This document shows, piece after piece, positions 6,960 to 63,776 of a stretch of DNA of 64,000 bases. The notes under the pieces were generated by a model, which was given only the letters and a program-made list of their open reading frames with translations, did no database searches and was not told where the DNA came from. The stretch comes from an uncultured Chloroflexia bacterium. Its GTDB lineage: Bacteria; Chloroflexota; Anaerolineae; CG2-30-64-16. A program made the translations under genes and the position numbers. Position 1 is the stretch's first letter. Each line of letters begins with the position of its first letter. Location: assembly GCA_963774265.1 (NCBI GenBank), contig CAVZDU010000003.1:96001-160000 (forward strand). The letters run 5' to 3'.

Positions 6960-8522
6960 CTATCCTCCTGTGACCATCATCATCGTGCCGCGCATTTCCA
7001 TCGGCTGCACGAGGATCCAGAGCCCGAACCCCAGCAACAACAGCGTCAGTAGTAGCCACGGTCCCGCAGCCGCCAAAGCCGCGTTCGGCCCCCTGCGCGT
7101 CCCGGTTTGACGGCGGGTATCGGCCAGGTGGCTCTGCGCAATGCGAACGGCCACCACGATGGACCCCGTCGCGCCCAGGTAAAGCAGCGCGGCTTCGATG
7201 GGAAAAAGCCAGCCTTGCGGCACGAGCGGCCCCAGGTCCCAGCGCGCCTGGCCGCCGTACAGGCCGACATCGGCCAGGAACGACTGGATCACGGGCACGA
7301 TCGTCAGCGCGCCGGTGAGGAAGTGAAACGCATAATGCGCGAGCCACATGCCGAAGCCCATCGGGGCAAGCGCCCAGACGTACCGCCGCGCGATCTCAAG
7401 GAGGGAGGCCGACGGGGCGGACTGGATGCGGGTCAGCGCGGACGCTGCGCCAAGCAGGACGACGGGCAGAACCAGCAGGCCGATGGCGAAAATGAGCAGC
7501 AGCCCGGGGGTGGGTGATGCGGTGCGAAGCAGCCGCGCGAGACCCTCCTGGAGCGCGTAGACGGGCCGGATCATCGCGAACGCGTTGAGGTATGCGCCGA
7601 AGGTCAGGACGGTGACAAGCGCTGCGAGATCGGTCCGCTGCGAGAAGCGGCCGATGCCCGAGCGCCAGGGGTCGCTCCAAAGCTCCGCCGTGGGGATTCG
7701 TGCGATCAAGCCGATGTTGTCATAAGGGCAGGCATGGACGCAGTCGAGGCAGAAGGTGCAGTCCATGTTGCCGACCTTGCGCTCCTGGAAGAGGGCAAGC
7801 TCGCAGCCGCGGCCATCCCGCCCTCTCTTCGTTTGTAGAGACGTTGCATGCAACGTCTCTACACGTATAGGCGCATGCAATGCCTCCGCTCGTGCTGGGC
7901 CGGGTCTTACCGTGATGCAGTCCTTCGTGCGACAGCTCGCGCACGTGCTCGCATCCCGGACCTTGATCTCAAGCGGTGAAGCCAGTGAGCCGAAGAAGTT
8001 GAACTGGCCCAGCGGGCAAATGTGCTTGCAGAATGCCGCGCCTTGGAAAACCGTGTCGACGAGGAGGGCGCCCGCGAAGTACGCGAGCGCGACCCAGGCC
8101 GTCCACCAGGGCGTCGCCCACAGGTCGTATCGCTCGTACACGAAGAAGAACAGGACCACCAGCGTGACGGCGCTCCACTTGTTTCGCAGGGCACGCGGGA
8201 CCGGGCGGCCGCCGCGGAGCAGATGCTCGCGCACCCACCGTCCGGCTCGCCGCGGCAGCATGAACGGGCAGGCCATACAAAAGAGGTTGCCCGCCAGGAG
8301 CAGCGCCAGGACGACAAAGCCGCGGTAGTGCAGCCAGACGCCGACGGTTGCCAGGTTCTTGGGCGCGAGTTGCGGGCCCACCATGCCGTCAAAGATGATC
8401 CACGCTGAGAACAGCCCCAGTGGAATCTGCATGGCGAGCCGGCTGTGCCGCCACTTAAGAAACGGGCCAATAGCCGGCCAGGTGAGAATATCGATGGATC
8501 GGCGGACTGTCGTCGAAACCAT
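6960..8522 (-). CDS. FixG/NapH-like membrane polyferredoxin (4Fe-4S binding)
   Basis: FCMACP, FCKHICP, CASC..KDC, CTFCLDCVHACP and many TM helices; ATG 8522 with AGGTG RBS. Confidence 0.8.
   Translation of the reverse strand: MVSTTVRRSIDILTWPAIGPFLKWRHSRLAMQIPLGLFSAWIIFDGMVGPQLAPKNLATVGVWLHYRGFVVLALLLAGNLFCMACPFMLPRRAGRWVREHLLRGGRPVPRALRNKWSAVTLVVLFFFVYERYDLWATPWWTAWVALAYFAGALLVDTVFQGAAFCKHICPLGQFNFFGSLASPLEIKVRDASTCASCRTKDCITVRPGPARAEALHAPIRVETLHATSLQTKRGRDGRGCELALFQERKVGNMDCTFCLDCVHACPYDNIGLIARIPTAELWSDPWRSGIGRFSQRTDLAALVTVLTFGAYLNAFAMIRPVYALQEGLARLLRTASPTPGLLLIFAIGLLVLPVVLLGAASALTRIQSAPSASLLEIARRYVWALAPMGFGMWLAHYAFHFLTGALTIVPVIQSFLADVGLYGGQARWDLGPLVPQGWLFPIEAALLYLGATGSIVVAVRIAQSHLADTRRQTGTRRGPNAALAAAGPWLLLTLLLLGFGLWILVQPMEMRGTMMMVTGG
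7834..7863. repeat. Perfect 30-bp palindrome (GTAG-type REP-like) inside the FixG-like gene, with a degenerate second copy at 7865-7889
   Basis: TGTAGAGACGTTGCATGCAACGTCTCTACA equals its own reverse complement; encodes VETLHATSL. Confidence 0.9.
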
Positions 8523-8534
8523 GAAAGTGCACCT

Positions 8535-8598
8535 AACCACAAAAGCGCGAAAAGACGAAGCTATACGATGTTCGGTGAGGCCTGGTGTCTTGGTGGTT
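8535..8598. repeat. Inverted pair of CAC/AAG-type short repeats, intergenic
   Basis: AACCACAAAAGCGCGAAAAGACGAAG (8535-8560) faces AACCACCAAGACACCAGGCCTCACCGAA on the minus strand (8571-8598). Confidence 0.7.
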
Positions 8599-8603
8599 CC
8601 TGT

Positions 8604-9068
8604 CTACTTCACATCCACCGGGAAGCGGCGCGCGATGGTCTGGCCGCCAGCCGTGATGATCTTCACATCCACGTACCAGGCGCCGCCCATGGTCCATTTC
8701 AGCGGCAGGCGGTACATACCGGCCTGGCTGCCTGACGCCTCCGCGTTCACGGGGACCATCCCCGCGTGGTTCATATTCGCCTCGATGGAGAGACGCGCTC
8801 CGTCGACAGGTTGGCCCGCCTTATCCTTCACGGTGATGATGACGGTTCCGTCGCCGGTCAGGGGTTGGGCGGGCTCGGTGGCAAAGGTCACCTGGTAGTC
8901 ATCCTGCGTCTGAGGCGAAGCGGATTGGCTTCGCCCACATCCGCCGAGCAGAACCAGTCCCACGATAGCCATGCCGGCCAAGAAGAACGCCCTGCGCGAC
9001 CGGTCGCGCAGGGAGTTGTGAGAAAACCGGGTCACTGCGCCTGGGGCATCCTTGCGTTCCCAGAACAT
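8604..9068 (-). CDS. YtkA/FixH-like lipoprotein, possible copper chaperone for the oxidase
   Basis: SRRAFFL (Tat-like) and LGGC lipobox; NMNHAGM Met/His motif; MGGAWYVDV; GAGGTG RBS. Confidence 0.75.
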   Translation of the reverse strand: MFWERKDAPGAVTRFSHNSLRDRSRRAFFLAGMAIVGLVLLGGCGRSQSASPQTQDDYQVTFATEPAQPLTGDGTVIITVKDKAGQPVDGARLSIEANMNHAGMVPVNAEASGSQAGMYRLPLKWTMGGAWYVDVKIITAGGQTIARRFPVDVK

Positions 9069-9419: not shown

Positions 9420-10009
9420 TCAAATCAGGTAGATGATCGTGAACAGGATGATCCACACGACGTCCACGAAGTGCCAATACAGACCGAAGATCTCGATCCG
9501 CATGTAGTTCGTCGACGAGAACCGCTCCTGCAGCGCCTCCCGCAGCAGCCCCGCGCACCACATCAGGCCGATGAAGACGTGCAGGCCGTGGAAGCCGGTC
9601 ACGGTGTAGAAGCCGCCGCCGAACAGGCTGCCCGAGGGCGTCAGGCCTTCGTGGATTAGCTGCGTGTACTCGAAAACCTGGACGCCCAGGAAGGTCGCGC
9701 CGAGGGCCAGCGTCGCCGCGAGATACAGCTTCAGCTTGCGTCCGGTCGCCGTTCCTGATGGCCTGCCAGGGCCAGCACGACGGTGGTGCTGCTGAAACGA
9801 TCAGGATGAACGTGTTGACGGCGGTGATGGGCACGTTCAGCACGTGGTTCGCGTCAGCCGGGCTGCGTCGCCTTCATCTGCAGGAATGCGCCGATCAGCG
9901 ACGAGAAGAGCATCACCTCGGTGGCCAGGAAGATCCACATGCCCAGCTTGCGGTTGTCGAGACCGGTGCTGGAGTTGGTGGGATCGGCGTGTTCGCTGAT
10001 CTGCTTCGC

Positions 10010-10013
<4 letters not shown>
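9420..10013 (-). CDS. ctaE: Cytochrome c oxidase subunit III (several indels)
   Basis: Fragments in different frames: LGMWIFLATEVMLFSSL, NTFILI, TGFHGLHV, GLYWHFVDVVW. Confidence 0.85.
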
Positions 10014-11654
<1,641 letters not shown>

Positions 11655-11666
11655 CGTCGCATCACC

Positions 11667-12743
11667 TCATTTCGTTGACAATAAGTACGAGACGAGCTTG
11701 TCTAGATCTTGCTTCGCAATCCTGAGGCCGTAGTCCTGCGGCATCAGGTTCGCCGGGAAGCCCTCGACGACGTGTGCGTTGGGCTTGACGATCGATTCGT
11801 GGGTGTACTCCTCGGCCGACTGACCCGGAACCCGGCTCCCCGCGACTGCGTTGAATCCATCCAGCTTGGGACCCAGGGCGCCAGCTGCGCCCGCGTCGGC
11901 CAGGGTGTGGCAGGCGTTGCAGCCGTTGTTGTTGAATAGCTGGCGTCCGGCGGCCAACGGGTCAGCGGCTGCGCTGGCGGCTTGGGTGGCTGTCGTTTGC
12001 TGGCTCGCGAGCCAGGCCCGGAAATCGGCATCCTGCTCCACGATGAGTTGCGCGCGCATCACCGCGTGCCCCGCGCCGCACAATTCGGTGCACACGATGG
12101 GGTATGCCCCCGGCTCGGTGCCGGTGATAAAGGTTTCGGTCACCCGGTCGGGCATGACGTCCTTCTTGATGCGCATATCGGGCACCCAGAAAGAATGGAT
12201 GACGTCATTGGAGCGCATCTTCAGGTGCACCTGGCGATCCACGGGGATGTGCAGCTCGGTCGAGGTCACGTCCTGCTCGGGGTAGTAGAACTGCCACGCG
12301 AACTGGATGCCTTTGACCTCCACGATCAGCGCATCAGCCTGTGGCTTCTCGATGTTGGCCAGCACCTGGTAGCTGGTGAAGCCGATGAAAAAAATGGTTA
12401 GTGCGGGGATAACGGTCCAGAAGAATTCCAGCTTCGTGTTGCCGCGCACGGGAGGGCCGTCGGTGTCGTCGTCCGGCTGCCGGCCAAATCGGATGACCGA
12501 GTAGAGCAGGAAGCCCTGGACGATGACGAAAACCACCGTGGCGATGCCAAGCGTCAGACCGAAAAGCCGGTCGATGGCTAACCCTTCGGCGGCCACAGAG
12601 CGATTGAGAAACGGATTGCTGATGCCCAACACAAGGCCGGCGACCACAGCTACGACGCCGATGACGATGGCCACGAGCCGGCTCGTCGTGTCGAACATGA
12701 CCGGCTGGCGGCCGGGCGCTTCAGGACCGGGGGCTTGTGACAT
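11667..12743 (-). CDS. ctaC: Cytochrome c oxidase subunit II with fused C-terminal cytochrome c (caa3)
   Basis: LEFFWTVIP, DVIHSFW, CTELCGAGHAVM CuA motif, C-terminal CNACH. Confidence 0.92.
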   Translation of the reverse strand: MSQAPGPEAPGRQPVMFDTTSRLVAIVIGVVAVVAGLVLGISNPFLNRSVAAEGLAIDRLFGLTLGIATVVFVIVQGFLLYSVIRFGRQPDDDTDGPPVRGNTKLEFFWTVIPALTIFFIGFTSYQVLANIEKPQADALIVEVKGIQFAWQFYYPEQDVTSTELHIPVDRQVHLKMRSNDVIHSFWVPDMRIKKDVMPDRVTETFITGTEPGAYPIVCTELCGAGHAVMRAQLIVEQDADFRAWLASQQTTATQAASAAADPLAAGRQLFNNNGCNACHTLADAGAAGALGPKLDGFNAVAGSRVPGQSAEEYTHESIVKPNAHVVEGFPANLMPQDYGLRIAKQDLDKLVSYLLSTK

Positions 12744-18952: not shown

Positions 18953-19096
18953 CTCTCCCTCCAGCCTGATCGTGACTTCTTATCCGCAATTCTACCACCC
19001 TTGATCCTTTCGGCGGTATAATGGAGCGCCCGCCGTGGCGGGCGGCCCGCTGCCTCCCGTGACGCGGCGCTGCGGCGGGGCCGTAAAGGAGAAGAC

Positions 19097-28595: not shown

Positions 28596-28678
28596 AGGTG
28601 CCCGGCACCTCGAAGGTGCCGGGCACCTAGGTACTCAAGTGCCGGGCACCTGGGGAACTTCACAAGTGCCGGGCACCT
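28596..28678. repeat. GTGCCnGGCAC repeat cluster: one 33-bp 15-3-15 hairpin plus two single 15-mers, between convergent genes
   Basis: AGGTGCCCGGCACCT-CGA-AGGTGCCGGGCACCT (28596-28628); AAGTGCCGGGCACCT at 28637 and 28664. Confidence 0.9.
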
Positions 28679-28687
28679 GGGGAGCCC

Positions 28688-29346: not shown

Positions 29347-32286
29347 TCAAACCGGCTTCCGCCTGATCACGATCAGCGTGAAGTCGTCGTACTGCGACTC
29401 CCCCGCCGCCCACGTTCGCACTGCCGCGTCGATCGCGCCGGCGATGGCCTCGGCCGGTTGGTCCTTATGCTGGAGCAGCAGCTCTGCCAGCCGTTCCTCG
29501 CCGAATGCATCGCCCGCCGGGTTCAGCGTATCGATTGCGCCGTCCGTATAGAATAGAACCACATCTCCGGGGTCCAGGTCAACTGTTTTTTGTTCGAAAT
29601 TGACGTCGTCGATGATTCCCAGCGCCAGGCCATCCGTCTTCAGCTCGGTGAGGTGCGCTCCCGCGGCGGGCGCGTGCAGCGCCAGGTTATGGCCTGCGCT
29701 ACTGTATGTCAGCCGATGCTCCACGATATCGAGCACACCGTAGTTGGCCGTGACAAACATGTCGGACGTGCTGTCTGAGAGGATCAGCTCGTTAGCGCGC
29801 TGCAGGGCCGTGGCCGGATCGCGGCCGCTGAACGCGACCACGCGTATGATGGTGCGCGCGAACATCATGTACAGTGCGGCCGGAATTCCCTTATCCGACA
29901 CATCTGCGATCACCAGCCCCAGACGGACCTGGTCAAGCTGCATGAAGTCGAAGAAATCGCCGCCCACCTCGCGCGCTGACCGCCAGCGATACGCCACCTC
30001 GTAACCCTCCAGCGTTGGGGCTTCCTGGGGCAGCAGCGTCTTTTGGATGTCGTGCGCCAGCTCCAGCTCGCGCCCCAGCCGCGCCCGTTCCGCCTCCTGG
30101 ATCTGCAATCTTGCGTTCTCGATCGCGATCGCGGCCTGGTTCGCGATGCCCACCAGGATGCGCACGCGGCGCGGGCTGAACACGTGCGCGCTATCGACGT
30201 CGTCGGCCAGCAGCGCGCCGATGGGCTCGTCGGCCACCAACAGCGGCACCACGAGGATCGTCCGGCTGCCGAACCGCTCGCGCCAGGCCTCGGGCACGCG
30301 AGGATTGTCCTGCGCATCGTCCACCACCAACGGCTGCCCGGTCCTGCACGCGTCATCGAGCAAGGGCAGTTCGCCCGGTTTGATGAGCGCGCCCTGGTAG
30401 GCCTCCGCCAGACCGGGTCGCTGCCCGTGGACGGTGCGGGTCCGGAGATTGCCTTCGCTATCGCTGAGCAGCGCCACACAGCGGTTCACACCTGTCAGCG
30501 CGGGCACGATTCGCGTCACCTGCTCCAGCGTCATATCCACCGGCTGCAGCCTGCGGATCGCCTCGGCCACCTGCAGCAACACCGTCGACGTCCAGGCCTC
30601 CTCTTCACGCATGGCAGTCAGCCGGCTATTGTCGACCGCAGCCGCGATCTGGTGTGCGATGCCCTTCAGCATGGCCAACCGCCGTTCGTCCAGGGTGGCT
30701 ACGCGCTCCCGGCTGAATCCGGCGCCCAGCACACCGAAAACTTCGCCCTGGTTGAGCATGGGCAGCAGTGCGACGAGATCGCCCGAGCACACCTCCCTGA
30801 GTGCCGCGGGCAAGCTGTCCGGCTGGGCCGCCGGCTCCAGCACCACCGCGCCCCGCGTCGCGCGCAGCTCATCGAGCGCCGGCCACTCGCCGGGCAAAAA
30901 GCGCAGGAGGGAGCGCAGGTCCGTCTCCCCGTCCTCGCCCTCCTCGGATTTTTGTGTACTCTGTGCTTTTTGCGGCTTGGTGGTTGATTCCCCCAGCCCA
31001 AACGACGCGCCGTATTGGAACGCCCCGGCCTCCTCGTGCCACAGCCAGATGGTGGTCGACTCGACGCCCGCCAACATCGCGGTCACGCGCACCGCGATGT
31101 CGAGCACGTCCTCCATGCTCCCGGCCTGGCTGGTTGCCTCGGCCACCTGCAACAGGACCGTGGTGACCCATGCCTCAACGCGCTGCGCCTCGAATGCACG
31201 TGCCGAGTTCACCGCCACCGCCACCTGGTCGGCCAGGGTGGCCAGGATGAACAGGTCGTCCGCGCCGAACGCGCCGGCCTCCGTGCTCTGCACGTCCAAT
31301 ACGCCCAACACTTCGCCCTCGACAAGCAGCGGCGTGGCGAGCTCTGCGCGCGTATCGGGCAATAGCCGGGGGTCATCGGGGATGTAGCGCGGCTCTTTGG
31401 CTACGTCGTTCGCCAGGAGCGGCTCGCCGTGCTGCGCGGTCCAGCCGATGATGCCTTCCCGGCCGATGTGCATGGTGCATCCCTCCCGCCGCCATTTGTC
31501 GTTCAGTCCGTGGCCGCTGGACGCCTGGAACACCGCGCGATCGCTGCCGTGCTCGACCAGGAAAATCTGCACGTGATAGTAGCCGAAGCGGGTGTGGATC
31601 AGCTCCACCACCTGGCGCAGGAGCCGGTCCAGATCGAGGATGCTGGTCAGCCGCCGGCCCACCTCTGAGACGGCCGTCAGCGCGTTCAGCCGTCGTTCCG
31701 AGCGTTCGTAAAGGCGTGCGTTGTTCAGCGCTGAGGCGGCCTGGTTTGCGAGGATGGTGAGCAGGCGGACGTCGCCTTCGTCGAACGCGTCGGGCCGCGA
31801 GCTTTGGATGGAGACGGCTCCAAGCGCGGTGTCGCCGGCCAGCAGCGGCAGGTAGATGCCTGAGCGGGGTGGGTTGTCGCTGAGGTAGACCGGACGGGCG
31901 GGCAGGTCCTCCATCTCGGTCTCGAAATCACCCACCAGGAGCGGCTGGTGTGCGTCTCGGAGCCAGCCGATGATGCCCTGGCCCCTCGGCAAGAAGAACG
32001 TCGTGGGGGTCTGAATTTCCCCGTCTTTCACCCAGACCTTGATATGGTAGAGTTCGCCTTCGAATAGCCCCAGTTGAAAGTTACCGGTCGGCACGATCCG
32101 GCCCGCCAGCGCGTAGATCAAACGGCACAGCGCGTCCTGATCCAATTGTGCCTGCAGGATCGACCGGCCGATCTCGGCGAGCGTGTTCAGCTCGGTGAGG
32201 CGTCGCGCGAGACGCCGGCCGGATGGGCTTCTGCTGGTCGCGCGCCGCCCCGCGCTCGCGCGGCCGGCGACCCTGGCCTGGGTCAC
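29347..32286 (-). CDS. SpoIIE/RsbU-like PP2C phosphatase with about four GAF domains
   Basis: Repeated GAF ends (LANQAASALNNARL, LADQVAVAVNSAR, IAHQIAAAVDNSRL, IANQAAIAIENARL); VGGDFFD, IADVSDKG, YTDG, DDFT. Confidence 0.92.
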   Translation of the reverse strand: MTQARVAGRASAGRRATSRSPSGRRLARRLTELNTLAEIGRSILQAQLDQDALCRLIYALAGRIVPTGNFQLGLFEGELYHIKVWVKDGEIQTPTTFFLPRGQGIIGWLRDAHQPLLVGDFETEMEDLPARPVYLSDNPPRSGIYLPLLAGDTALGAVSIQSSRPDAFDEGDVRLLTILANQAASALNNARLYERSERRLNALTAVSEVGRRLTSILDLDRLLRQVVELIHTRFGYYHVQIFLVEHGSDRAVFQASSGHGLNDKWRREGCTMHIGREGIIGWTAQHGEPLLANDVAKEPRYIPDDPRLLPDTRAELATPLLVEGEVLGVLDVQSTEAGAFGADDLFILATLADQVAVAVNSARAFEAQRVEAWVTTVLLQVAEATSQAGSMEDVLDIAVRVTAMLAGVESTTIWLWHEEAGAFQYGASFGLGESTTKPQKAQSTQKSEEGEDGETDLRSLLRFLPGEWPALDELRATRGAVVLEPAAQPDSLPAALREVCSGDLVALLPMLNQGEVFGVLGAGFSRERVATLDERRLAMLKGIAHQIAAAVDNSRLTAMREEEAWTSTVLLQVAEAIRRLQPVDMTLEQVTRIVPALTGVNRCVALLSDSEGNLRTRTVHGQRPGLAEAYQGALIKPGELPLLDDACRTGQPLVVDDAQDNPRVPEAWRERFGSRTILVVPLLVADEPIGALLADDVDSAHVFSPRRVRILVGIANQAAIAIENARLQIQEAERARLGRELELAHDIQKTLLPQEAPTLEGYEVAYRWRSAREVGGDFFDFMQLDQVRLGLVIADVSDKGIPAALYMMFARTIIRVVAFSGRDPATALQRANELILSDSTSDMFVTANYGVLDIVEHRLTYSSAGHNLALHAPAAGAHLTELKTDGLALGIIDDVNFEQKTVDLDPGDVVLFYTDGAIDTLNPAGDAFGEERLAELLLQHKDQPAEAIAGAIDAAVRTWAAGESQYDDFTLIVIRRKPV
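30949..30985 (-). repeat. CAC/AAG-type short repeat, in frame inside the phosphatase gene
   Basis: AACCACCAAGCCGCAAAAAGCACAGAGTACACAAAAA encodes TTKPQKAQSTQK; A-rich patch in a GC-rich gene. Confidence 0.75.
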
Positions 32287-34756: not shown

Positions 34757-34791
34757 AATCCTCAATCTTGAATCTTCAATCTTCAATCTCG
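34757..34791. repeat. Heptamer tandem repeat, 5 units
   Basis: AATCCTC AATCTTG AATCTTC AATCTTC AATCTCG. Confidence 0.85.
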
Positions 34792-37700
34792 TAGCTCGCC
34801 AGCACCACGTGATCGTTCCCGTCAAGGGTTTGCAGCCGCGGCGAGCCCTCCACGGTGGGGTCGTAGAGCGCAGCGATCAGGCGATAGGATCCGGCAGGCA
34901 GGGTGCGCGCCAGGGGCAGCGAATAGGTCGCCGGCGCCGCCTCCAAATCCGCCTGACCGAAGGGTTGGTCGATCTGCGCGATCACTTTGCTCCCTGCGTC
35001 GAGCAACTGCAGGGTAAGCTTTTCGTTCCCGCTGAGACTCTGCTGCCCATCCTGCCATTGCATAGTGATCGACACCACGTCTCCCGGAGAGAGTCGCTCG
35101 CTGAGGACCGCAGCGCCCGCCAGCTGCAACCCATTTGCGAAGGAGATCGCTGCTGCCGGCAGCTCTGAGGGCGGTCGCTCGTAGACCCGCACGCGCCAGT
35201 CGCCGACCGGCGTCTCGCCGATCAGCTTGTAGGCCTCCTCAAGCGTCCTCGCTGCGATTTCGCTGTCATCCCAATTTTCGCTCGGCTGGACCGCAACAAC
35301 CACTCGTTGGACGTCCTGCGCCGCCAATTGGTTCACCAGCGCACGCGCTCTGGACTCATCGTTGGCAGCCGGCGGCAGGACGAAATGATCCACCCCGCTC
35401 GTGACATAATACCATAGAGTGGGGTCGGGGTAAGTCTGGGCGAGGCGCACCTTTGCCTCCGGCCAGCTGCGGGAATATCGATCCAGCACCGCAGCAAGCT
35501 GGCGCCACCCGCGGGATTTGGAATAGGCCGGGTCATCGTAGTAATGTAGCAGGGATGCGAGCGTCGCCACAAGCAGGACAGCGAGCAGGGCCGCCCGAAC
35601 GTAGACGACCGGACGATCTGCCGCGCGGCCCCCCGGGCGGCCGGCCACCCCCGCGATCATCAGGAGCAATCCCGGCAACGCCGCGATGATATAGCGTTCG
35701 TTGAAGATGGGCCGGGCGAGGGCTCCGGCCCAGGTGATCAGGAGCGGTGCGAGCAGGTAGGGAACCAGCAGCCACAACGCCCGGCGGCCGGCGGCCGACC
35801 TGGCCAGCCTGAGCGCGCCGAGGAGCGCCAGGATCGCGGCAAGGACCCCGACCGCCGCTCGTTGGCCGGCCGGCATGGTTTCGCCCACCGCGAATACGCC
35901 CAGCGACCGCAGCCACAAGGAGACAAAGCCAGGCGAGTCGCCGTTGCCCACGTACCCGGTGAGGGTCGACCGGGCCGCGATCAGCCAGGGCAGGTAGAGT
36001 AAGCCCGTGGCGACCTGGCTGGCCAGCCACGGCGCCAGGAGCCGCCGCTCCTCGCGGTTCGCGATGGCCCGGCCCAGCACAAAGAGGTTCTGTGCGACGA
36101 TGATGTACGCCGCGTAGTAGTGCGTTTGCAGCGCCAGCCACGTGACGACCACATACGCCGCCCAAACTGCCGTCGCGCCCCGCGTGCGCCCGCACGTCGG
36201 GGCGACCGGGGTAGGGGCGACCGGCCGGTCGCCCCTACGGATGGCGCGCGCGCCAGCGCCTCCAGCATCAGCAGGGTGCTTGCCAGCGTCAGGGCGAGGC
36301 TGATGCTGTACATCCGCGCGTCCTGGCTGTGCCAGATCGCATACGGGCTGATCGCCAGCAGGCCCCCCGCCAGCGCCGCGGCACCCTTGCCCAGCCCTAG
36401 CCGCCGCGCCAGCCGGTAGATCAGGGCGACCGCCAGCACGCCGAACCACGCGGACACGAAACGCAGCGCAAATTCGGTGTGGCCGGCCAGCTTGAGCCAC
36501 TCCCCCTGGACCACGTAACTCGCCACCGGGTGCGGCTCAGCCAGCTCGATCGTCTGCCGGACGAGCTTCGGCAGCGACTCCAGGCTGAACAGCCGCCCCA
36601 GCGCCTCATCGCCGCGCAGCTCCTGGTACCCCAGGCGGAAGGCCCGCAGGCCGAACGCCACCAGGACGACCGCGGGGGCGACCAAACCTCCCAGGGCTCG
36701 AAGACCTGGCAGGTTTACACCCCGGCGCCTCACGACCATCGCGCCTGCAAGCAGGACGATCGTCAGCCCGCTGATCAGCAGCCCCCAGCGCACGCTTGCC
36801 GGTCGGTAGCTCAGCTCTAGGGTCTTTTCGCCCGCGGCCACGGGCAGGCCGAGGAACGTAAGGTTGGTCCGCAGGACCGGCGCCTCCACTGACGAAGCGT
36901 CCTGAGCGGGCGACGCTTGCATCGCGCGCAGCGGAGTCGAAGGATCGCCGTCCTGAATCGTCGCATGCCAGTCCGGCAGCCAGTTTTCGCTGACCACCAG
37001 GTAGCCCCCGTATTCACTCTTGAGATGGATGCGCAGGTGACCAGGGGCAATCTGCTCCACCTGCACCTCACTCGCGCCCGCGTTGGCCAGGATGCCGTCT
37101 TCCAGCCCGATTGGGCGGCCTGACCCGTTGACGGCCGGCGGCAGCAGCGCGGTCTGCGCCAGGTTCAACCCCCCGTCGCTGAGCCGCGGGAGCGCGGCTG
37201 CGTCATCCGCAGTAGCCAGCGAGTTGACGACCCAGGCCCGCGGATGGTTTTCCGCCAGGCGATGGACCAGCGAAGCAGTCTCGGAGGCGGGTGCGGCAGA
37301 CCCGCCGGGGGCGCCCGTCTGCTCGGCGCCGGGCAGCTCCGCAACCACCTGGCTGGCCGTGTAGAGGTCATCCCGGGACGTTAGCACGTATTGCGTGCCC
37401 GTCAGCTGCCAGAGCCGCATCTTGGGAAAGTCGCCCAGCAATGCCTCATAACGCGCAAGACGAAGGGGGCTGGTGCCCGCCACGTCCTCGACGCCGACCA
37501 GCATGCCATAGTCCGCGGGCAGGATGTTCTCGTTCTGTACGCGGGGGGCCGCACCCTCGCTGTTCGTGGCAAGGATCGTCCGCAGCGCAAGGGCCTCCCC
37601 CTGAGGGAGGACAGGCCGGTCGCCTAGATTCGTGCCCACGTTCGCCACGAACAGCTCGAGCAGGACCGCGGCTGTGACCAGGACTGCGGCCGTCTTTCGG

Positions 37701-46753: not shown

Positions 46754-48901
46754 TCACTCCACTTGCAAGGATGGCAGCAAGATCGAGCGCCAGAGAATGC
46801 TCAGCGGCGGCTGAACCGTCTCGGGCCTTGGCTCGAGTTGTTCGCCCGTCTCGGGATTGAACCAGCCGACCTCCAGCAGATACTCGCCGGGTGGAATTCC
46901 TGCAGACATCTGCAACAGCACCTGGTCGACGTATACCTGGTCGCGCCAGAACTCGACATTCTCCCGGCCGCCCGGGTTGAAGTGTTCGTCCTGCGCCCAA
47001 TGGCCTCCCGGGTTGTCCGGATTGGCAGTCTGCCCGGGTCCGGGGCGGACATGCACGAAGGTTGCCAACTTGACGCCTTCAGAGGCATTGCCCTGCCAGT
47101 AGAGCGTCAACAGGATCTGCCCGCCGGGAGCGACCTTTTGCTGCGAAATCGTGTATCCCCGCAGGTGCGGGCCACCGGCGAAATCGACGTCCACGATTGC
47201 GGCTGCATTGCATAGCAGCTCGCTATCGGGCAGCGGTTCACCTCCCGGCATTCGGTATTGTGCCAGAAGATCGTCGTATTGTCCCGTATTCATGGCCCAG
47301 CTGGTGCGCAGTCGCTCCCCGGTGAACAGCGGCCCCTGGGTAATCACCCGCAGCCGATCGTAGTACTGGGCCAGCCCCTGGTTGCAGAGCTTATTCTCAC
47401 CCGAAGCCAGGGTCTCAAGATAGCCGGCCGGGATGAGACGCTCGAAATGGCCGATGCGCCAGGGTTTGTCTTTTGGCAAGGGCAGCCGCGCGAGCAGCGG
47501 ATCGGCCAGCGTGTTGAGATCGACAAGATGCTTTTGCGGGCCGGCATAGTAGCCGAAAATGCCGGCGACCCCGAATATGTGCACGGGAAACGGATTCTCG
47601 CGCGCCTCCAGTCCCAACGCGACGAGGCCCTGGTTGGGATACGGCGGCTGCTTCTGGTTGAGGAGTCCCGTGCCCTCATAGAAACAACTGCGTTCGTCCG
47701 ACACGCCCGACGGTCCGATCCCCGCCGCGTCGCACTTCATGAAGCGCGTCCCAGGAATCGGCGCGTACGGCCCGGCCAATCCGACGACGATGATGAGGAT
47801 GGTCGCGATAAGCGAAAGTGCCCCAGGTGCCCGGCACTTCGAAAGTGCCGGGCACTTAGCAGTAGCCACCCCAAGTGCCCGGCACCTGCCAGGTGCCGGG
47901 CGCTTACCCGCAATCAGCATCGCACCCAGCACGGGGGCAGCCAGGAAGCGCCCGCTCATGAAGTCGCCGCCGATCCAAACCACATAGCCAAGGTAAAGGA
48001 CGATGCCCGCCGCCCAGAACAGAAGGCCTGGCCGTCGTGACCAGACCGCGGTCGCCAGGCCGAAGACGATGAGCAGCGAGCTCAGCGGATCGATAGCCGT
48101 CGAACGGACAAGATACGTCAGCCCTTGCCGCACCAGCGCGACCTGGTCGATGCCGTGGCTCAATTTGGCGAAATAGGTGTTTGGCGCAAGGAACCCGTAA
48201 TACAGGAGTGAGAAGGCCTCCCATGCCAGGAGGGGCAGGAAACCCAGCAGGATCATCCCGATCGCTCTGGGCGCCTGCCGGCGAATTTCGGCCCGGCCCT
48301 GCCAGAGCACGTACGCGAAAGCAGGTGCGACGAAGAGGACGATGTCGGGCCGGTTCAAGGCGAGGAGCGCGGTGATCAGCGACAGAAGAAAGAGGCGGCG
48401 CAGCTCGCCGCCATTTTGCATCAGGACGATGAAGAAGAGCACCAGAAGCAGGTGTGTCAGCGGGTTCTCCAGGCCCGAGGTGGAATAATCCGTGAAGGCC
48501 TTGGACAGCGTGAGACCGGTCACTGCGAGAAGCGATGCCTGCCATGAGGCCCCAACACGGGTCACGACTAACCCAACCACCGCCAGCGAGATCGCCGCGG
48601 ATACCAGGAGCGTTGTGAAGTACGCGTCGCGCGTAACGAAGTAGAAGGCCGACAGGACCAACATCCACAGCGGGTGGGTGTAGGCCTGGACCCGCTCCGC
48701 GACGTTCCACGTGAGGCCGTAGCCGTGCACGAAATTGTCTATCGTGCGTAACGTGATATAGGCGTCGTCGCTCATCCATGCCGTGCGCAGCAGAACCCCC
48801 GCAAAGACCGCGACGAGGGCGGCCGCGGCCCAGTGGGTGGTTGGCCACTCCCGGACTGGGCCGATGACGCCTCGCGTTCCTCGATCCTTCATGCGTGTCA
48901 C
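46754..48901 (-). CDS. AftB-like (DDAYI) GT-C glycosyltransferase with C-terminal Ig-like domain
   Basis: SDDAYITLR, ERVQAYTHPLW, TSGLENPL, RPD, PNTYFAK, GGDFMSGRF, WRIGHFER. Confidence 0.8.
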   Translation of the reverse strand: MTRMKDRGTRGVIGPVREWPTTHWAAAALVAVFAGVLLRTAWMSDDAYITLRTIDNFVHGYGLTWNVAERVQAYTHPLWMLVLSAFYFVTRDAYFTTLLVSAAISLAVVGLVVTRVGASWQASLLAVTGLTLSKAFTDYSTSGLENPLTHLLLVLFFIVLMQNGGELRRLFLLSLITALLALNRPDIVLFVAPAFAYVLWQGRAEIRRQAPRAIGMILLGFLPLLAWEAFSLLYYGFLAPNTYFAKLSHGIDQVALVRQGLTYLVRSTAIDPLSSLLIVFGLATAVWSRRPGLLFWAAGIVLYLGYVVWIGGDFMSGRFLAAPVLGAMLIAGKRPAPGRCRALGVATAKCPALSKCRAPGALSLIATILIIVVGLAGPYAPIPGTRFMKCDAAGIGPSGVSDERSCFYEGTGLLNQKQPPYPNQGLVALGLEARENPFPVHIFGVAGIFGYYAGPQKHLVDLNTLADPLLARLPLPKDKPWRIGHFERLIPAGYLETLASGENKLCNQGLAQYYDRLRVITQGPLFTGERLRTSWAMNTGQYDDLLAQYRMPGGEPLPDSELLCNAAAIVDVDFAGGPHLRGYTISQQKVAPGGQILLTLYWQGNASEGVKLATFVHVRPGPGQTANPDNPGGHWAQDEHFNPGGRENVEFWRDQVYVDQVLLQMSAGIPPGEYLLEVGWFNPETGEQLEPRPETVQPPLSILWRSILLPSLQVE
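47825..47905. repeat. Two 33-bp GTGCCnGGCAC 15-3-15 hairpins, in frame inside the AftB-like gene
   Basis: AGGTGCCCGGCACTT-CGA-AAGTGCCGGGCACTT (47825-47857); AAGTGCCCGGCACCT-GCC-AGGTGCCGGGCGCTT (47873-47905). Confidence 0.9.
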
Positions 48902-51315: not shown

Positions 51316-53347
51316 TTGGGTATCGATAGGAGCTGATCCGCCGCGTGGCCGGACACGGGAACCCAAGGCCCTTCCGGGAAAGGCCGCAAGCCGACTTCCG
51401 CTCTCACTGCCTGGTTTGTCACCTCTTGCGGCGGCAGGTATGTGTCGGCCACGACGCGCCCCACCGGCCACTTATCTGTGCTGAATCGGCCCGCGCCCGG
51501 CGATCGCTTCCACTCCCACAGGAGGTTGCCGTTCGCGTCGAGCAGCCGCAATGCCGTGCGCAGGTCATCGGGCGTCTTTTGCGCGGCGCGCCAGAACAGC
51601 GTCAATTGGCCCGGCGCCGGATCATCCCACGCAGCCGCCACCAATTCCAGGGGACCGAAGGCCACATTCATCGCCTGTGCTGCGGCGATTCGCTCCGGAT
51701 TGGGCTCGGGCGGAGGCGCGAAGGGCAGCACCAGGCCTGTGATCAGGCTGGCGATGGCGACGGCGGCCATGCCGCCGGCAAACAGGCCGCTCGTCACGCG
51801 TGTGGCGCGTCTTGGAAGCCAGGCGCCAAGCCCTCCTGCGACAAGCAGCGCAATGGGCGCTAGGGCCGGAAACAACAGGCGCCCCTGGTCGGTGCCGAGC
51901 GCCACACTGCTGTAGGAGAAAATGCCTGCCGCGGTCACCAGCGGCGCACCGAGGAGGATGATCCAGAGGTGCCCGGCACTTGCCAAGTGCCGTGCACCTG
52001 ATCCTCGCCAGTGCCGTGCACCTTCTTCGTCAGCCACAAGACCCATCCTGCGAGGGCGGCTGCGCCGATCGCTGCCCAGATGACATAAAGCGCAGCCGGC
52101 AAGGGGATGTGGCCCGCGCCGCCGAACTTCCCCCAGAAACTGAGCCACCATCCGGTCAACAACTGCACCACGTCCGCCAGCCCCAGCGGTCCCTGGCGTC
52201 GATCGATGGTCGCGAGCACCAGCGGCCACCCGAACGGATCGCCGTACAAACGCCAGTTGCGCCAGAGCCACGGCGCCGCGATCAGGAAGGCCGCAGCACC
52301 CGCCAGCGCCACCCGGATCAGGCCCGGCATCAGCGTACGCCAATCCAGGCGGCGCAACCCTTTCGGCCATGTTGAGATGATGAAGACTGCCGCCACGATC
52401 AGGGCCAGCGACCCCGTGCTCGCCTTCGTGACAAACGCCAGCCCAAGACAGACACCGGCCAGCACCGCACCGGCGACCGCCTTGTGGTTACTCACGGCAT
52501 TCGCCCTGTCGTTGTGAACATTAACGAGCTCGCCACCGGCGACCGCCTGCCCGTCAACGGGCAGGCTACGAAGCGACGCCCGCTGAAGCGGGCTAAGCGA
52601 GGCCGTCAATGCTGCGTTAGCCCCATTAATGGGGCGTTGTTGGGTAGCCCGGCGATTGATCGCCGGGCGGTCTTGCTGGTTTGGTGCGATTGCCTGGGGC
52701 TGAAGCCTAAGGCCGCGCAGCGCCAACCACATCGCCAGTGTCGCCCACATCGCGGCCAGCATGTCGTTGCTCATTGCGCCACCGACGAACAACGACTCCG
52801 GCAGGAACGCAGCGAACACAGCGCCCGCAAGTGCGAGCCCAGGCCGCTCGGGCCAGATCGCGCGGCCCAGCAAATACGTCGCCAGGACGAGCACCAACCC
52901 GGCCAGGATTGACACGAAGCGCCCCGCACGCATGGTGAGCACGCCATCGCGCCATGGCCAATCTTCCGCCGTCGTGTGAATGAAGAAATTGGTCGCCTGG
53001 CTCTGGGGACCGAAGGCCATGTCGGGATTGGCGCGCAGGAAGCTGCAGTCGGGCGAACCGCCGGCAAGCTTGCCGGCGGCGGCCGCGAGGATGTGATACA
53101 GCGGGGGGTGCTTGCCCTGCGTCATCTCCGGCCCGACGGGCAGCTTGCCTTCCTCCAGGATGTAGGCCGCGTACGCGTAGTGATCCGCCTCATCCGGCGC
53201 TTCGCCCAGCGGGGTGGCCAGGCTGAAGACGATCGCGAGGATCAATCGCAGTGCCAGCAGAACGATCAGCGCGCCCCGTGTGCGCCCTGCCTCTGCTGAG
53301 ACCGGGGATGGCATCAGGGCCTCGTGATCGTGATGCTTTTCGGCCAT
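51312..53347 (-). CDS. GT39/DUF2142-like membrane glycosyltransferase (frame change near 51960)
   Basis: EAPDEADH, HPPLY, SNDML, RNWRLYGDP, SFWGKFG, QGRLLFP. Confidence 0.78.
51967..52023. repeat. 33-bp GTGCCnGGCAC hairpin plus one half copy, inside the GT gene
   Basis: AGGTGCCCGGCACTT-GCC-AAGTGCCGTGCACCT (51967-51999); CAGTGCCGTGCACCT (52009-52023). Confidence 0.88.
52545..52668. repeat. Two oppositely oriented 49-nt double-hairpin GTAG elements (copies 2 and 3), in frame in a GT loop
   Basis: Minus strand 52545-52593: GCCCGC-TTCA-GCGGGC, 8 nt, GTA-GCCTGCCCGT-TG-ACGGGCAGGC. Plus strand 52620-52668: GCCCCA-TTAA-TGGGGC, 8 nt, GTA-GCCCGGCGAT-TG-ATCGCCGGGC. Confidence 0.9.
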
Positions 53348-62453: not shown

Positions 62454-62459
62454 TTGAGA

Positions 62460-63695
62460 ATGCTCAAGCCACGTGAACTGACGCTGGAGGAACTCGGCGA
62501 TCTGGCCGAGATCATTCCGGGTCCCGAGCCTATCCTGGAGGTTGCGCTCTATCCCATCCCTCAATTCGAGCCTACCCCGCGACGCGAGATCATACGAGTG
62601 TGCGAGCCCACCTTGCGCGGCAACGAGCTGGCCTACATCACCGATGCCGTCCAGACGAACTGGATCTCTTCCGGGGGCAAATACATCCCTCGCTTTGAGG
62701 CGCTCTTTGCCGAAAAGATGGGCACGCGCTTCGGCATCGCCTGCATGAACGGCACGGTCGCGCTGCACTTGGCGTTGGCCACCCTGGGCCTGGAGCCGGG
62801 CGATGAAGTGATCATTCCGACCTTCACGATGATCGCAACCGCCAACGCTGTCACCTATCTGAACGCGGTGCCGGTGCTCGTGGACAGCGAGATGGCCACC
62901 TGGAACATGGACCCGGAGCAGATCGAGGCCAAGATCACCCCGCGCACGCGGGCGATCTCCGTGGTTCACACCTACGGCCACCCGGTGGACATGGATGCCG
63001 TGAATGAAATTGCGGCCCGGCACGGCCTTTTTGTCCTGGAAGATGCAGCCGAAGCGCACGGCGCAGTCTACAAGGACCGGCCTGTCGGCAGCCTGGGGGA
63101 TGCGGCCTGTTTCAGTTTCTATGGCAACAAGATCATCACCACCGGTGAGGGCGGCATGATCACCACCAACCGGGAAGATGTCGCGCGGCTCGCCTGGAAC
63201 TTGCGGGATCATGCATTCAGCACTGACCGCCACTTCTGGCATAAGTTCGTCGGTTTCAACTATCGTATGACGAACCTGCAGGCTGCCATCGGCCTGGCTC
63301 AGACCGAGCAGCTGGAGACGTTCGTTGCTGCCCGGCGCGCGCACGCTGCGCAGTATACGCGGCTGCTCAAGCAAATCCCGGGAATCGTCACACCGCCTGA
63401 GGCATCCTGGGCGCGCAACGTTTACTGGATGTATGGCATTTTGCTGGACAAAGAATTCGGCCTGTCACGCGATGAGCTCCGGGCCCGGCTGGCGCGGCGG
63501 GGCATCGAGACACGCACCTTCTTCATTCCCATGCATTGCCAGCCGGTTTACTTTGACCAGTATCGCGGCCAACGCTATCCCGTGGCAGAGGATCTTTGCC
63601 GCCGGGGTCTCTATCTCCCGTCGGCATCGAGCCTGACCTCGGATGACATCGAAGTGGTGGTTGAGTCGATTAACGAAAGCCTGACTCAGTCGTAA
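62460..63695 (+). CDS. DegT/DnrJ/EryC1/StrS aminotransferase (perosamine synthetase-like)
   Basis: NWISS.G, NGTVALHLAL, EDAAEAHGA, SFYGNKIITTGEGG, GFNYRMTNLQAA. Confidence 0.93.
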   Translation: MLKPRELTLEELGDLAEIIPGPEPILEVALYPIPQFEPTPRREIIRVCEPTLRGNELAYITDAVQTNWISSGGKYIPRFEALFAEKMGTRFGIACMNGTVALHLALATLGLEPGDEVIIPTFTMIATANAVTYLNAVPVLVDSEMATWNMDPEQIEAKITPRTRAISVVHTYGHPVDMDAVNEIAARHGLFVLEDAAEAHGAVYKDRPVGSLGDAACFSFYGNKIITTGEGGMITTNREDVARLAWNLRDHAFSTDRHFWHKFVGFNYRMTNLQAAIGLAQTEQLETFVAARRAHAAQYTRLLKQIPGIVTPPEASWARNVYWMYGILLDKEFGLSRDELRARLARRGIETRTFFIPMHCQPVYFDQYRGQRYPVAEDLCRRGLYLPSASSLTSDDIEVVVESINESLTQS

Positions 63696-63697
63696 GG

Positions 63698-63776
63698 GAC
63701 ACAGAGGGCACGGAGACGCACAAAGGAAAGGCCAGGAACCTTGTAAGCCTTCGTGCCCTGGATCCTTTGCGGTGGA
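63698..63776. repeat. Inverted pair of CAC/AAG-type short repeats between convergent genes
   Basis: GACACAGAGGGCACGGAGACGCACAAAG (63698-63725) faces TCCACCGCAAAGGATCCAGGGCACGAAG on the minus strand (63749-63776). Confidence 0.75.

What the first reader, a model, noticed from the sequence alone, without database searches (positions are those of the whole stretch)
7834..63776. Several families of tiny structured repeats colonise coding sequences, mostly in frame in membrane-protein loops
Seen: more than 20 short elements in at least four unrelated families (28-bp GTAG palindromes; 49-nt double hairpin; 33-bp GTGCCnGGCAC hairpin; ~9-nt-period CAC/AAG units). They lie in intergenic gaps and inside about nine genes, where they read as hydrophilic junk peptides (VETLHATSL, VGATGRSPL, KCPALSKCRAPG, TTKPQKAQSTQK, AINRRATQQRPING) between helices or domains. 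I saw none inside dnaB, groEL, rph or the oxidase subunits. Established: a GTAG tetranucleotide 5' of a hairpin marks REPs mobilised by HUH Y1 TnpA_REP/RAYT enzymes, and in-frame repeat insertion is known for Rickettsia RPEs and Nostoc SDRs. Inference: this lineage hosts several non-autonomous micro-elements, with mobilisers encoded elsewhere, that remodel envelope enzymes.
Basis: partly seen in the sequence, partly recalled or inferred. Interest (0 to 1): 0.85.

Follow-up and report, generated by a model that had tools for sequence, protein, structure and literature searches.

The report
REP hairpin repeats inserted in genes
Small hairpin-forming DNA repeats of the well-known REP type, whose likely mobilising enzymes are encoded elsewhere in the genome, have landed in loops of several membrane-enzyme genes of an uncultured Anaerolineae bacterium; this is a new example of a known phenomenon.

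Summary
The repeats are real, but the counts are overstated. The window has 8 repeat or insertion loci, and reaches about 20 elements only if single hairpin units are counted. Six loci lie inside 5 genes. Four are in frame. Two coincide with a frame change in an assembly that carries many indels. Orthologue alignments show shorter loops, or none of the element, at all six sites.

Three families are far above chance genome-wide:
- a GTAG 28-mer, here GTAG1: 25 copies against 0 in a Markov control;
- a second GTAG 28-mer, GTAG2: 9 against 0;
- the GTGCCSGGCAC core: 110 against 5.

The "49-nt double hairpin" has about 4 copies. The "CAC/AAG" unit is an in-frame insertion but not a demonstrable repeat family.

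Genome-wide the elements are depleted from coding sequence: 14-18% of sites against 51% of random sites.

GTAG1 flanks, and sits inside, a RayT-type gene on contig C1. GTAG2 flanks and sits inside another on C10. The double hairpin flanks an IS200-like TnpA. GTGCC arrays flank a RayT in a sister genome.

All of this is in print: intragenic REPs (Di Nocera 2013) and REPs inside subclass 2.4 tnpA_REP genes (Quentin 2018). Verdict: new member of a known kind, modest interest.

The parts
7835..7862 (.). GTAG1 REP. It is a perfect 28-bp palindrome (30 bp with the flanking T..A). It is read in frame as VETLHATSL in the linker of a 526-aa FixG-like 4Fe-4S membrane protein (ORF 6960-8540, minus strand).
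   Evidence: The same element is at this site in G002 and, degenerate, in G005; it is absent in G003. The linker is 4-16 aa in 43 of 60 parsed orthologues and 23-103 aa in 17 of 60.
7863..7889 (.). Possible degenerate second GTAG1-like copy next to the intact one. It is read as EALHAPIR.
   Evidence: Direct reading; not tested further.
28596..28683 (.). Four GTGCCSGGCAC hairpin units: one 33-bp inverted dimer plus two single units. They are intergenic, between the convergent groEL and a metallo-beta-lactamase-fold gene.
30937..30990 (-). In-frame insertion of 18 aa (ESTTKPQKAQSTQKSEEG) between GAF domains of a GAF-SpoIIE phosphatase (ORF 29347-32286). It is unstructured and is not a demonstrable repeat family.
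   Evidence: There is a clean gap in G001, G004, G006 and G007, and a diverged insert in G002. No fold. No genomic copies by BLAST.
34764..34789 (.). AATCTTC heptamer tandem at the junction of two genes on the same strand.
   Evidence: (90 matches v 3 in the control).
36183..36247 (-). A 65-nt insertion holding 1.5 GTAG2 REP units (28-mer at 36211-36238, half copy at 36195-36209). It lies in a loop of a GT-C (PMT_2) membrane glycosyltransferase. The reading frame changes here as assembled.
   Evidence: The two halves abut in the G001 and G009 orthologues, and 4-5 aa lie between them in G012 and G025.
47822..47905 (-). Two 33-bp GTGCC inverted dimers. They are read in frame (...GRCRALGVATAKCPALSKCRAPG...) in a loop between hydrophobic helices of a 715-aa protein that some sources name arabinofuranosyltransferase (ORF 46754-48901).
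   Evidence: Homologues at 85-88% identity carry the units in variable number. Those at 48-58% identity lack them.
51965..52023 (-). Two to three GTGCC units (VHGTWQVPGTS) in the linker between the N-terminal GT-C domain and the C-terminal domain of one long gene (53347 to about 51312). The frame changes at about 51965 as assembled.
   Evidence: G004 reads the site in one frame through a VPGTSEVPGTS stretch followed by six SPA[HP]LPGT(S) repeats. G005 has degenerate units. G001, G003, G006 and G007 have none. One related-strain contig has an extra A after 51964 (weak).
52475..52714 (-). An insertion of about 80 aa, in frame (residues 212-291 of ORF 51935-53347), between two hydrophobic helices of the same GT-C gene. 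It holds the REP cluster listed next.
   Evidence: The loop is about 4-10 aa in G001, G003 and G006. G004 and G005 carry a diverged insert of about 85 aa.
52578..52668 (.). REP cluster: hairpin GCCCGCTGAAGCGGGC (52578-52593) plus the 49-nt double hairpin (52620-52668), whose second hairpin is GTAG-tagged. The same two sequences bracket an IS200-like TnpA gene at C1:1281363-1281917.

Best explanation
These are REP-type elements: short hairpin repeats, several tagged with GTAG. They belong to several REP/Y1-HUH-transposase (RAYT, 'REPtron') systems of an uncultured Anaerolineae lineage. Each family has, in this genome or in a sister genome, a single-copy RayT- or IS200-like gene bracketed by its own repeats. 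That enzyme is the likely mobiliser or maintainer, acting on single-stranded hairpin DNA; this step is inferred from the family, not shown here.

Most copies are extragenic. A minority survive inside genes. The units have no stop codon in most frames, their lengths (30 or 33 nt) are multiples of three, and they landed in loops or linkers that tolerate extra residues. Once in place, arrays grow, shrink and decay, so close relatives differ in unit number and more distant ones carry only diverged remnants.

Shown here: repeat status, hairpin folds, RayT association, and insertion relative to orthologues. Inferred: transposase-mediated movement, and that the host proteins tolerate the inserts.
For: - Copy numbers far exceed a Markov control, and the folds have z from -4.9 to -8.8.
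- Distribution is patchy while the sequence stays identical across genera. GTAG1 occurs in 12 of 61 genomes and the GTGCC dimer in 15 of 61. The reversed-pattern controls give 0.
- RayT/TnpA genes are bracketed by the same repeats.
- The C1 gene has NHIH, WQ and YISDNP motifs. Sources name some of its homologues 'REP element-mobilizing transposase RayT'.
- All 28 homologues that I chose from the 120 listed encode the GTAG1 palindrome in the post-HUH loop, read in two frames: VETLHATSL or RDVACNVST. Conservation is therefore at the DNA level. This matches the published subclass 2.4 (passages of PMC6006769).
- GTGCC is read in all three frames in different genes (KCPA, VPGT, ARH/AGH), and it also lies in intergenic DNA.
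- Insertions relative to orthologues are seen at six sites.
- Coding-like ORFs span 14-18% of sites against 51% of random sites, as reported for REPs (passages of PMC3733652).
Against: - Copy numbers are in the tens, not the hundreds typical of classic REPs.
- GTGCC has no GTAG tag. Its RayT was found only in G004, and not in G000, which is 84% complete.
- G002 (17 GTAG1 copies, 89% complete) gave no Y1_Tnp or RayT match.
- G046 (19 copies, 99% complete) and G033 (20 copies, 98% complete) have no homologue of the C1 RayT at E <= 1e-8.
- None of the RayT/IS200-like loci of relatives that I scanned (L114-L152, L158-L186) holds GTAG1.
- No target-site duplication or clean empty site at nucleotide resolution was seen.
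- Two intragenic sites are out of frame as assembled.
- The coding classifier is crude. It calls only 51% of random sites coding, and it rests on one control set.
Confidence: 0.75

Rival explanations
1. The repeats are REP-like in form but are no longer mobilised by a transposase, or never were. They spread and persist through replication slippage at hairpins, local tandem amplification and gene conversion. The RayT genes are simply one more place where they accumulate.
For: - Arrays vary in unit number at a fixed site between close homologues.
- Tandem half-site arrays exist, for example C2:72574-72706 and C1:1020000-1020112.
- Some GTAG1-rich genomes have no cognate RayT at the thresholds used.
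- No target-site duplications were seen.
Against: - Dispersed copies on all large contigs have identical 28-mers.
- Distribution across genera is patchy while the sequence stays identical. Slippage alone does not explain this.
- Four separate repeat families each stand next to a Y1 HUH gene.
Confidence: 0.15
2. The intragenic copies are selected protein features: flexible or hypervariable loops of envelope glycosyltransferases. They are not tolerated junk, and the repeats serve as a source of loop diversity.
For: - Four of the six sites lie between hydrophobic helices of GT-C-type enzymes in one variable glycosylation cluster.
- The window holds 8 of the 110 GTGCC cores in 1.16% of the genome.
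- Unit number differs among homologues at 85-88% identity.
Against: - The same DNA is read in different frames in different genes and also lies between genes.
- Inserts decay quickly in relatives.
- Two sites break the frame as assembled.
Confidence: 0.07
3. The intragenic elements are artefacts of a long-read metagenome assembly, such as mis-joined or error-ridden repeats.
For: - The assembly has frameshifts in groEL, rph and cox1.
- Frame changes fall exactly at two elements.
- Short-read contigs of a related population break at 47855.
Against: - The same inserts at the same sites occur in independent genomes (G002, G004, G005) and in proteins from several public sources.
- Only the frame state at the two sites remains doubtful; the presence of the elements does not.
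Confidence: 0.03

Closest known systems
GTAG-tagged REPs and REPtrons (Di Nocera, De Gregorio and Rocco 2013, PMC3733652; I read passages and section 16)
   Same: - They are 20-40 bp palindromes with a GTAG end, often in inverted dimers or clusters.
- They are mostly extragenic, between convergent or same-direction genes.
- Family-specific RAYT genes are flanked by them.
- REPs inside ORFs encode 20-30 aa (dimers) or 43-82 aa (clusters).
- REPtrons are missing in some species.
   Different: - Copy numbers here are in the tens.
- The host is an uncultured Anaerolineae lineage.
- The host genes are mainly GT-C membrane glycosyltransferases, not the replication and repair genes stressed in that paper.
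- The GTGCC family carries no GTAG tag.
TnpA_REP subclass 2.4 (Quentin et al. 2018, PMC6006769; I read passages and a table row)
   Same: - The motifs NH[IFV]H, WQ and YIxNNP match NHIH, WQ and YISDNP of the C1 gene.
- The subclass is described as abundant in Cyanobacteria and scattered in other phyla.
[quoted passage not shown]
   Different: I could not see their Figure S10, so I cannot say whether the same palindrome or the same loop is shown. Membership here rests on motifs and on source names, not on their classifier.
Rickettsia palindromic elements (RPE), as cited in PMC3733652 (passages)
   Same: Palindromic repeats inserted in frame in genes that probably still give working proteins.
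   Different: RPEs are longer and belong to an unrelated sequence family in an obligate intracellular alphaproteobacterium. No sequence comparison was made here.
REPINs (Bertels and Rainey; search-listing abstracts, and passages of PMC5581495)
   Same: The 33-bp GTGCC element is two inverted units with a short spacer, like a REP doublet. The RayT is single-copy.
   Different: The spacer is only 3 nt (33-35 nt in a longer variant with an inner hairpin). Population sizes are small.
   Same: Very small repeats that can sit in frame in genes (recalled, not read).
   Different: Not tested. The original paper was not among the papers I opened, and no SDR sequence was compared.

Membership tests
REP / REPtron (RAYT-associated repetitive extragenic palindromes) | Short (20-40 bp) palindromic unit repeated far above chance in the genome. 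| tested here: met
   Against a Markov control: GTAG1 25 v 0, GTAG2 9 v 0, GTGCC core 110 v 5. Folds have z from -4.9 to -8.8. The 49-nt composite has only about 4 copies.
REP / REPtron (RAYT-associated repetitive extragenic palindromes) | Conserved GTAG (GT[AG]G) tetranucleotide at one end of the hairpin. | tested here: met
   Met for GTAG1, GTAG2 and the second hairpin of the 49-nt element. Not met for the GTGCC family, whose flank consensus is CCAGGTGCC. Genome-wide, GTAG next to perfect hairpins of 7 bp or more is enriched only 2.0-fold: 34 observed against 16.7 expected.
REP / REPtron (RAYT-associated repetitive extragenic palindromes) | A Y1 HUH transposase gene (RAYT) flanked by copies of the same repeat. 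| tested here: met
   GTAG1 is at C1:1019441-1019998. GTAG2 is at C10:187853-188500. The doublet is at the IS200-like TnpA at C1:1281363-1281917. For GTGCC this was found only in the sister genome G004:C8:99803-100201; no homologue was found in G000.
REP / REPtron (RAYT-associated repetitive extragenic palindromes) | The enzyme has the HUH motif and a catalytic tyrosine in a YIxxNP-type motif, and matches the curated RayT model. | tested here: inconclusive
   The motifs are present by direct reading. The NF047646 scores are 51.4 bits for the C1 gene and 73.6 bits for the G004 gene, both below the 80-bit cut-off. Pfam Y1_Tnp gives 19.9 bits for the C1 gene (below the 23-bit cut-off) and 38.1 bits for the G004 gene. 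Sources name some homologues RayT.
REP / REPtron (RAYT-associated repetitive extragenic palindromes) | Predominantly extragenic location. | tested here: met
   Coding-like spanning ORFs are found at 5 of 36 GTAG1 sites, 2 of 14 GTAG2 sites and 12 of 67 GTGCC sites. The figure for 2000 random sites is 51%. The classifier is crude.
REP / REPtron (RAYT-associated repetitive extragenic palindromes) | Cleavage or mobilisation of the REP by its RAYT. | not testable with these tools
   This needs biochemistry or population data.
TnpA_REP subclass 2.4 (Quentin 2018) | Motifs NH[IFV]H, WQ and YIxNNP, with REP insertion inside the gene. | tested here: met
   The C1 ORF has NHIH, WQ and YISDNP, and carries GTAG1 in frame after the HUH strand. 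All 28 chosen homologues carry a derivative there. Of 27 related loci parsed, 12 have a palindrome with a stem of 7 bp or more in that loop, and 5 of those are GTAG...CTAC. The background is about 0.065 such hairpins per 100 nt (3589 in 5.51 Mb). The paper's table row was seen.
In-frame intragenic palindromic elements (RPE-like, intragenic REPs) | The element interrupts a conserved gene without stop or frameshift, and orthologues lack it. | tested here: met
   Met at 7835-7862, 47822-47905 and 52475-52714, and for the unstructured insert at 30937-30990. Not met as assembled at 36183-36247 and at about 51965.
MITE | Length 70-300 bp, terminal inverted repeats and a target-site duplication. | tested here: not met
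   Units are 28-49 nt. No direct repeats appear in the flanks of the 25 GTAG1 copies; there is only a T..A extension of the palindrome.

The most novel reading that the evidence does not exclude
Loops of GT-C envelope glycosyltransferases, and the FixG-like linker, are recurrent landing pads where REP arrays expand and contract between very close strains. This would give a REP-driven source of hypervariable surface-enzyme loops, that is, a function at the protein level rather than tolerated junk. A second strand of the same reading concerns the tag-less GTGCC repeat. Together with its RayT in the sister genome, it may be a REP class outside the published GTAG and CGTC super-families.
Probability: 0.12. 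Interest if true: 0.6.

Novelty: new member of a known kind. Interest (0 to 1): 0.3.

Why it matters
The finding adds an uncultured Anaerolineae lineage, with at least four co-resident REP/Y1-transposase systems, to the catalogue of REP biology. It also gives clear examples of REP arrays read through as protein in membrane glycosyltransferase loops.

In practice it matters for annotation. These repeats create odd 'junk' peptides, apparent gene fusions or splits, and sites where long-read assemblies shift frame.

It does not open a new mechanism. Intragenic REPs, REPtrons and REPs inside tnpA_REP genes are all already in print.

Tried and rejected
- A first hairpin census script timed out; I rewrote it. 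Its reversed-sequence control is uninformative, because reversal keeps hairpins, so I dropped it.
- A flank-based coding classifier called only about 39% of random sites in frame. I replaced it with a spanning-ORF test, which is still crude.
- Pfam Y1_Tnp searches alone missed the GTAG1 and GTAG2 RayT genes. The NCBIfam model found them.
- My first regexes for the post-HUH loop parsed few loci: 7 of 30, and 6 matches among the 32 loci scanned. I replaced them with tblastn bracketing.
- The search of earlier findings gave an error for a query that was too short and nothing for a 46-nt window reference.
- Sequencing runs gave one soil-metagenome run with 0.08 of the words, kept as contigs.
- Laid on 35900-53400, that run gave small pieces 90-99% alike. 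One contig (depth 2.1) has an extra A after 51964. One contig (depth 2.63, side 26) skips 52570-52643. Contig ends fall at 47855. All of this is too thin to decide the frame state or an empty site.
- I considered and rejected the hairpin at 26513-26563 as a mobile repeat. It reads TTAGCACTC-N9-GAGTGCTAA upstream of groEL, which I recall as the CIRCE operator consensus.
- I rejected the MITE reading, because there is no target-site duplication and the units are too small.
- I rejected the idea that REPs inside RayT genes are new, because it is in PMC6006769.
- Full-text searches for the GTAG1 sequence and its peptides found no relevant paper.

Full report
**Setting.** The window is G000:C3:96001-160000 of a 5.5-Mb, 10-contig metagenome-assembled genome that is 84% complete. 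Its relatives are uncultured Anaerolineae/Anaerolineales, phylum Chloroflexota (record titles).
- Gene content by Pfam: alternative complex III, a cytochrome oxidase operon, SURF1, rph, dnaB with its loader genes, groEL, a GAF-SpoIIE phosphatase with partner-switching genes, and a long cluster of GT-C-type membrane glycosyltransferases.
- groEL, rph and cox1 are each split over two or more frames. The assembly therefore carries many indels, and this limits every statement about reading frame.

**What is in the window.** A tile BLAST of the whole window against the genome, together with a 14-mer census, finds seven loci made of short repeats.
- 7835-7862: GTAG1, a perfect 28-bp palindrome.
- 28596-28683: four GTGCCSGGCAC units.
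- 34764-34789: an AATCTTC heptamer tandem.
- 36195-36238: GTAG2, one and a half units.
- 47822-47905: four GTGCC units.
- 51965-52023: two to three GTGCC units.
- 52578-52668: a small hairpin plus the 49-nt double hairpin.

It does not fold (z -0.18). The other elements fold far better than shuffles (z -4.9 to -8.8), and the small hairpin has z -3.1. The hairpin at 26513-26563 reads as the CIRCE operator upstream of groEL (consensus recalled). It is not one of these repeats.

**More than chance.** The comparison is with one third-order Markov genome.

| Element | Genome | Control |
|---|---|---|
| GTAG1, full copies | 25 | 0 |
| GTAG1, half sites | 78 | 1 |
| GTAG2, full copies | 9 | 0 |
| GTGCC core | 110 | 5 |
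| GCCCGCTGAAGCGGGC | 12 | 1 |
| First hairpin of the 49-mer | 4 | 0 |
| Second hairpin of the 49-mer | 1 | 0 |
| CACAGAG motif | 7 | 0 |

- The canonical GTGCC element is a 33-bp inverted dimer. Core spacing of 18 nt occurs in 24 adjacent pairs. A longer variant carries an inner GCGATCC hairpin. The cores form 67 clusters.
- Copy numbers are in the tens, which is low for REPs.
- Distribution among relatives is patchy while the sequence stays identical. GTAG1 occurs in 12 of 61 genomes and the GTGCC dimer in 15 of 61. The reversed-pattern controls give 0 in every genome.

**Gene context in the window.** Two loci are extragenic.
- 28596-28683 lies between the convergent groEL and a metallo-beta-lactamase-fold gene.
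- 34764-34789 lies at a gene junction.

Six insert sites lie in five genes.

1. *7835-7862.* The element is read VETLHATSL in the KDCI...GCEL linker of a 526-aa FixG-like protein.
   - G002 has the same element, G005 a degenerate one, and G003 none.
   - Of 80 orthologous loci, 60 could be parsed. The linker is 4-16 aa in 43 of them and 23-103 aa in 17.
   - The long linkers are mostly in Anaerolineae relatives and hold other low-complexity or repeat peptides.
2. *30937-30990.* This is an 18-aa insert between GAF domains. G001, G004, G006 and G007 show a clean gap, and G002 a diverged insert. It is an insertion but not a demonstrable repeat.
3. *36183-36247.* Here 65 extra nucleotides hold GTAG2. 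The two halves abut in the G001 and G009 orthologues, and 4-5 aa lie between them in G012 and G025. The frame changes here as assembled.
4. *47822-47905.* The units are in frame in a loop of a 715-aa protein.
   - Three orthologues at 43-46% identity have a loop 20-23 aa shorter.
   - In a wider protein search, eight homologues at 85-88% identity carry KCPA/CRAL units in varying number.
   - One homologue at 81% has another sequence at the site.
   - Four homologues at 48-58% have a 35-column gap.
5. *About 51965-52023.* These GTGCC units lie in the linker of a long GT-C gene.
   - G004 reads the site in one 1073-codon frame, with VPGTSEVPGTS followed by six SPA[HP]LPGT(S) repeats.
   - G005 has degenerate units. 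G001, G003, G006 and G007 have none.
   - In the window the frame changes at about 51965.
6. *52475-52714.* This in-frame insert of about 80 aa holds the REP cluster. It is absent from G001, G003 and G006 and diverged in G004 and G005.

The flanks at sites 3 to 6 are hydrophobic helices by direct reading. The 'loop' part of the finding therefore holds.

**Genome-wide context.** I used a spanning-ORF test with a codon log-odds score. It% of 2000 random 28-nt sites coding.

| Family | Sites spanned by a coding-like ORF |
|---|---|
| GTAG1 | 5 of 36 |
| GTAG2 | 2 of 14 |
| GTGCC | 12 of 67 |

- Several of the 12 GTGCC sites are single cores in ordinary motifs such as VPGTGKT.
- The elements are thus roughly three-fold depleted from coding sequence. 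The window, with 8 of the 110 GTGCC cores in 1.16% of the genome, is unusual.
- GTGCC is read as KCPA, VPGT or ARH/AGH in different genes. What is conserved is therefore DNA, not protein.

**The mobilisers.**
- Pfam Y1_Tnp finds three loci in G000.
- The locus at C1:1281363-1281917 is an IS200-like TnpA (NF033573, 64 bits). On one side it has GCCCGCTGAAGCGGGC-TAC. On the other it has a doublet that aligns with the window's 49-mer. The composite occurs at four places in the genome.
- The NCBIfam RayT model finds further genes.
- At C1:1019441-1019998 a 185-aa ORF with NHIH, WQ and YISDNP has GTAG1 at -119, +225 (inside, in frame, VETLHATSL), +530 (half copy) and +584.
- At C10:187853-188500 another RayT-type ORF has GTAG2-type hairpins on both sides and in its post-HUH loop.
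- In the sister genome G004, a 196-aa RayT (NF047646, 73.6 bits against a cut-off of 80) is bracketed by about ten GTGCC units. No homologue was found in G000.
- Against a strict pairing, G002 gave no Y1 or RayT hit. G033 and G046, which are rich in GTAG1, have no homologue of the C1 RayT at E <= 1e-8. No RayT locus of a relative that I scanned holds GTAG1.

**REP inside the RayT gene.**
- Of 32 related loci, 27 could be parsed. Twelve have a palindrome with a stem of 7 bp or more in the post-HUH loop, and five of those are GTAG...CTAC.
- One of them, in G005, is identical to the window's GTAG2 28-mer.
- The background is about 0.065 such hairpins per 100 nt (3589 in 5.51 Mb).
- I chose 28 homologues from the 120 listed, taking the top hits and the named ones, so this is not a random sample. 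All 28 encode VETLHATSL, VETLHCNVST or RDVACNVST at that place. These are the same palindrome in two frames. The set includes cyanobacterial proteins.
- This looked new, but it is in print. Quentin et al. [quoted passage not shown] I could not see their Figure S10.

**Comparison with what is known.**
- Di Nocera et al. 2013 (PMC3733652; passages and section 16) describe GTAG REPs and family-specific REPtrons. They report a mostly extragenic location and REPs inside ORFs encoding 20-30 aa or 43-82 aa. They also cite RPEs in Rickettsia.
- The present case fits that description in a new lineage, with low copy numbers.
- GTGCC lacks the GTAG tag.
- Full-text searches for the GTAG1 sequence or its peptides found nothing relevant.

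**Read data.** Only one public run held 8% of the words, as contigs of a related population. One contig has an extra A after 51964, and by my arithmetic this would put the two halves of the GT-C gene in one frame. At depth 2.1 this is only a hint.

**Verdict.** The REP/RAYT interpretation is largely right. The generalisation to coding sequences is not. The case is a new member of a known kind, with interest 0.3.

Noticed in passing
window 26919-28584 (groEL), 18234-18958 (rph), about 9850-11700 (cox1): Essential genes are split over two or three reading frames. The assembly therefore carries many indels, probably long-read homopolymer errors. Any frame-based claim in this genome needs raw reads.
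   Followed up: partly
window 26513-26563: An inverted repeat TTAGCACTC-N9-GAGTGCTAA lies inside a longer 21-nt-arm hairpin upstream of the groES/groEL region. It reads as the CIRCE (HrcA) operator, whose consensus I recall. It is not a mobile repeat.
   Followed up: no
window 34764-34789; 65 sites genome-wide: An AATCTTC heptamer tandem family gives 90 matches against 3 in the control. In the window it sits at a gene junction just upstream of a likely start codon. Elsewhere it is sometimes read as SSIFNLQSS.
   Followed up: partly
G000:C1:1019441-1019998 (L153 441-998): A RayT-type gene carries its own GTAG1 REP in frame after the HUH motif. It also has an array of half sites downstream (1020000-1020112). 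This matches the published subclass 2.4.
   Followed up: yes
G000:C1 about 1,278,000-1,310,000: This region is dense in elements of all families (GTAG2, GTGCC, AATCTTC and the doublet) and holds the IS200-like TnpA. It is a repeat hot spot.
   Followed up: no
G000:C2:72574-72706: A GTAG1 unit is followed by eight tandem half-site repeats. They are read in frame as VETLHATSL(RATSL)x7 inside a coding-like ORF.
   Followed up: no
L040 (G014), L037 (G004), L073, L041: FixG-like linker: The same linker in other Chloroflexota holds unrelated repeat peptides, such as SAFIRVQ, GDASMGDASMGDAS, ESRNPD x3 and TTKTPRTPREEK. The site is a recurrent landing pad for different small repeats.
   Followed up: partly
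window 25362-25844 and 25906-26490: Two tandem paralogous IstB/DnaC-like AAA+ genes, about 72-83% identical over stretches, lie just after dnaB and a DnaD-like gene.
   Followed up: no
L114 (G004:C2:214530-217868): An IS200-like TnpA is bracketed by a composite unit of about 150 nt made of four different hairpins. The unit is repeated four times upstream and once downstream. G000 L013 has a related arrangement.
   Followed up: partly
alignment A1, columns 186-195 (homologues of the 715-aa protein): A second small indel site in the same protein shows tandem LRRNV repeats in some homologues.
   Followed up: no
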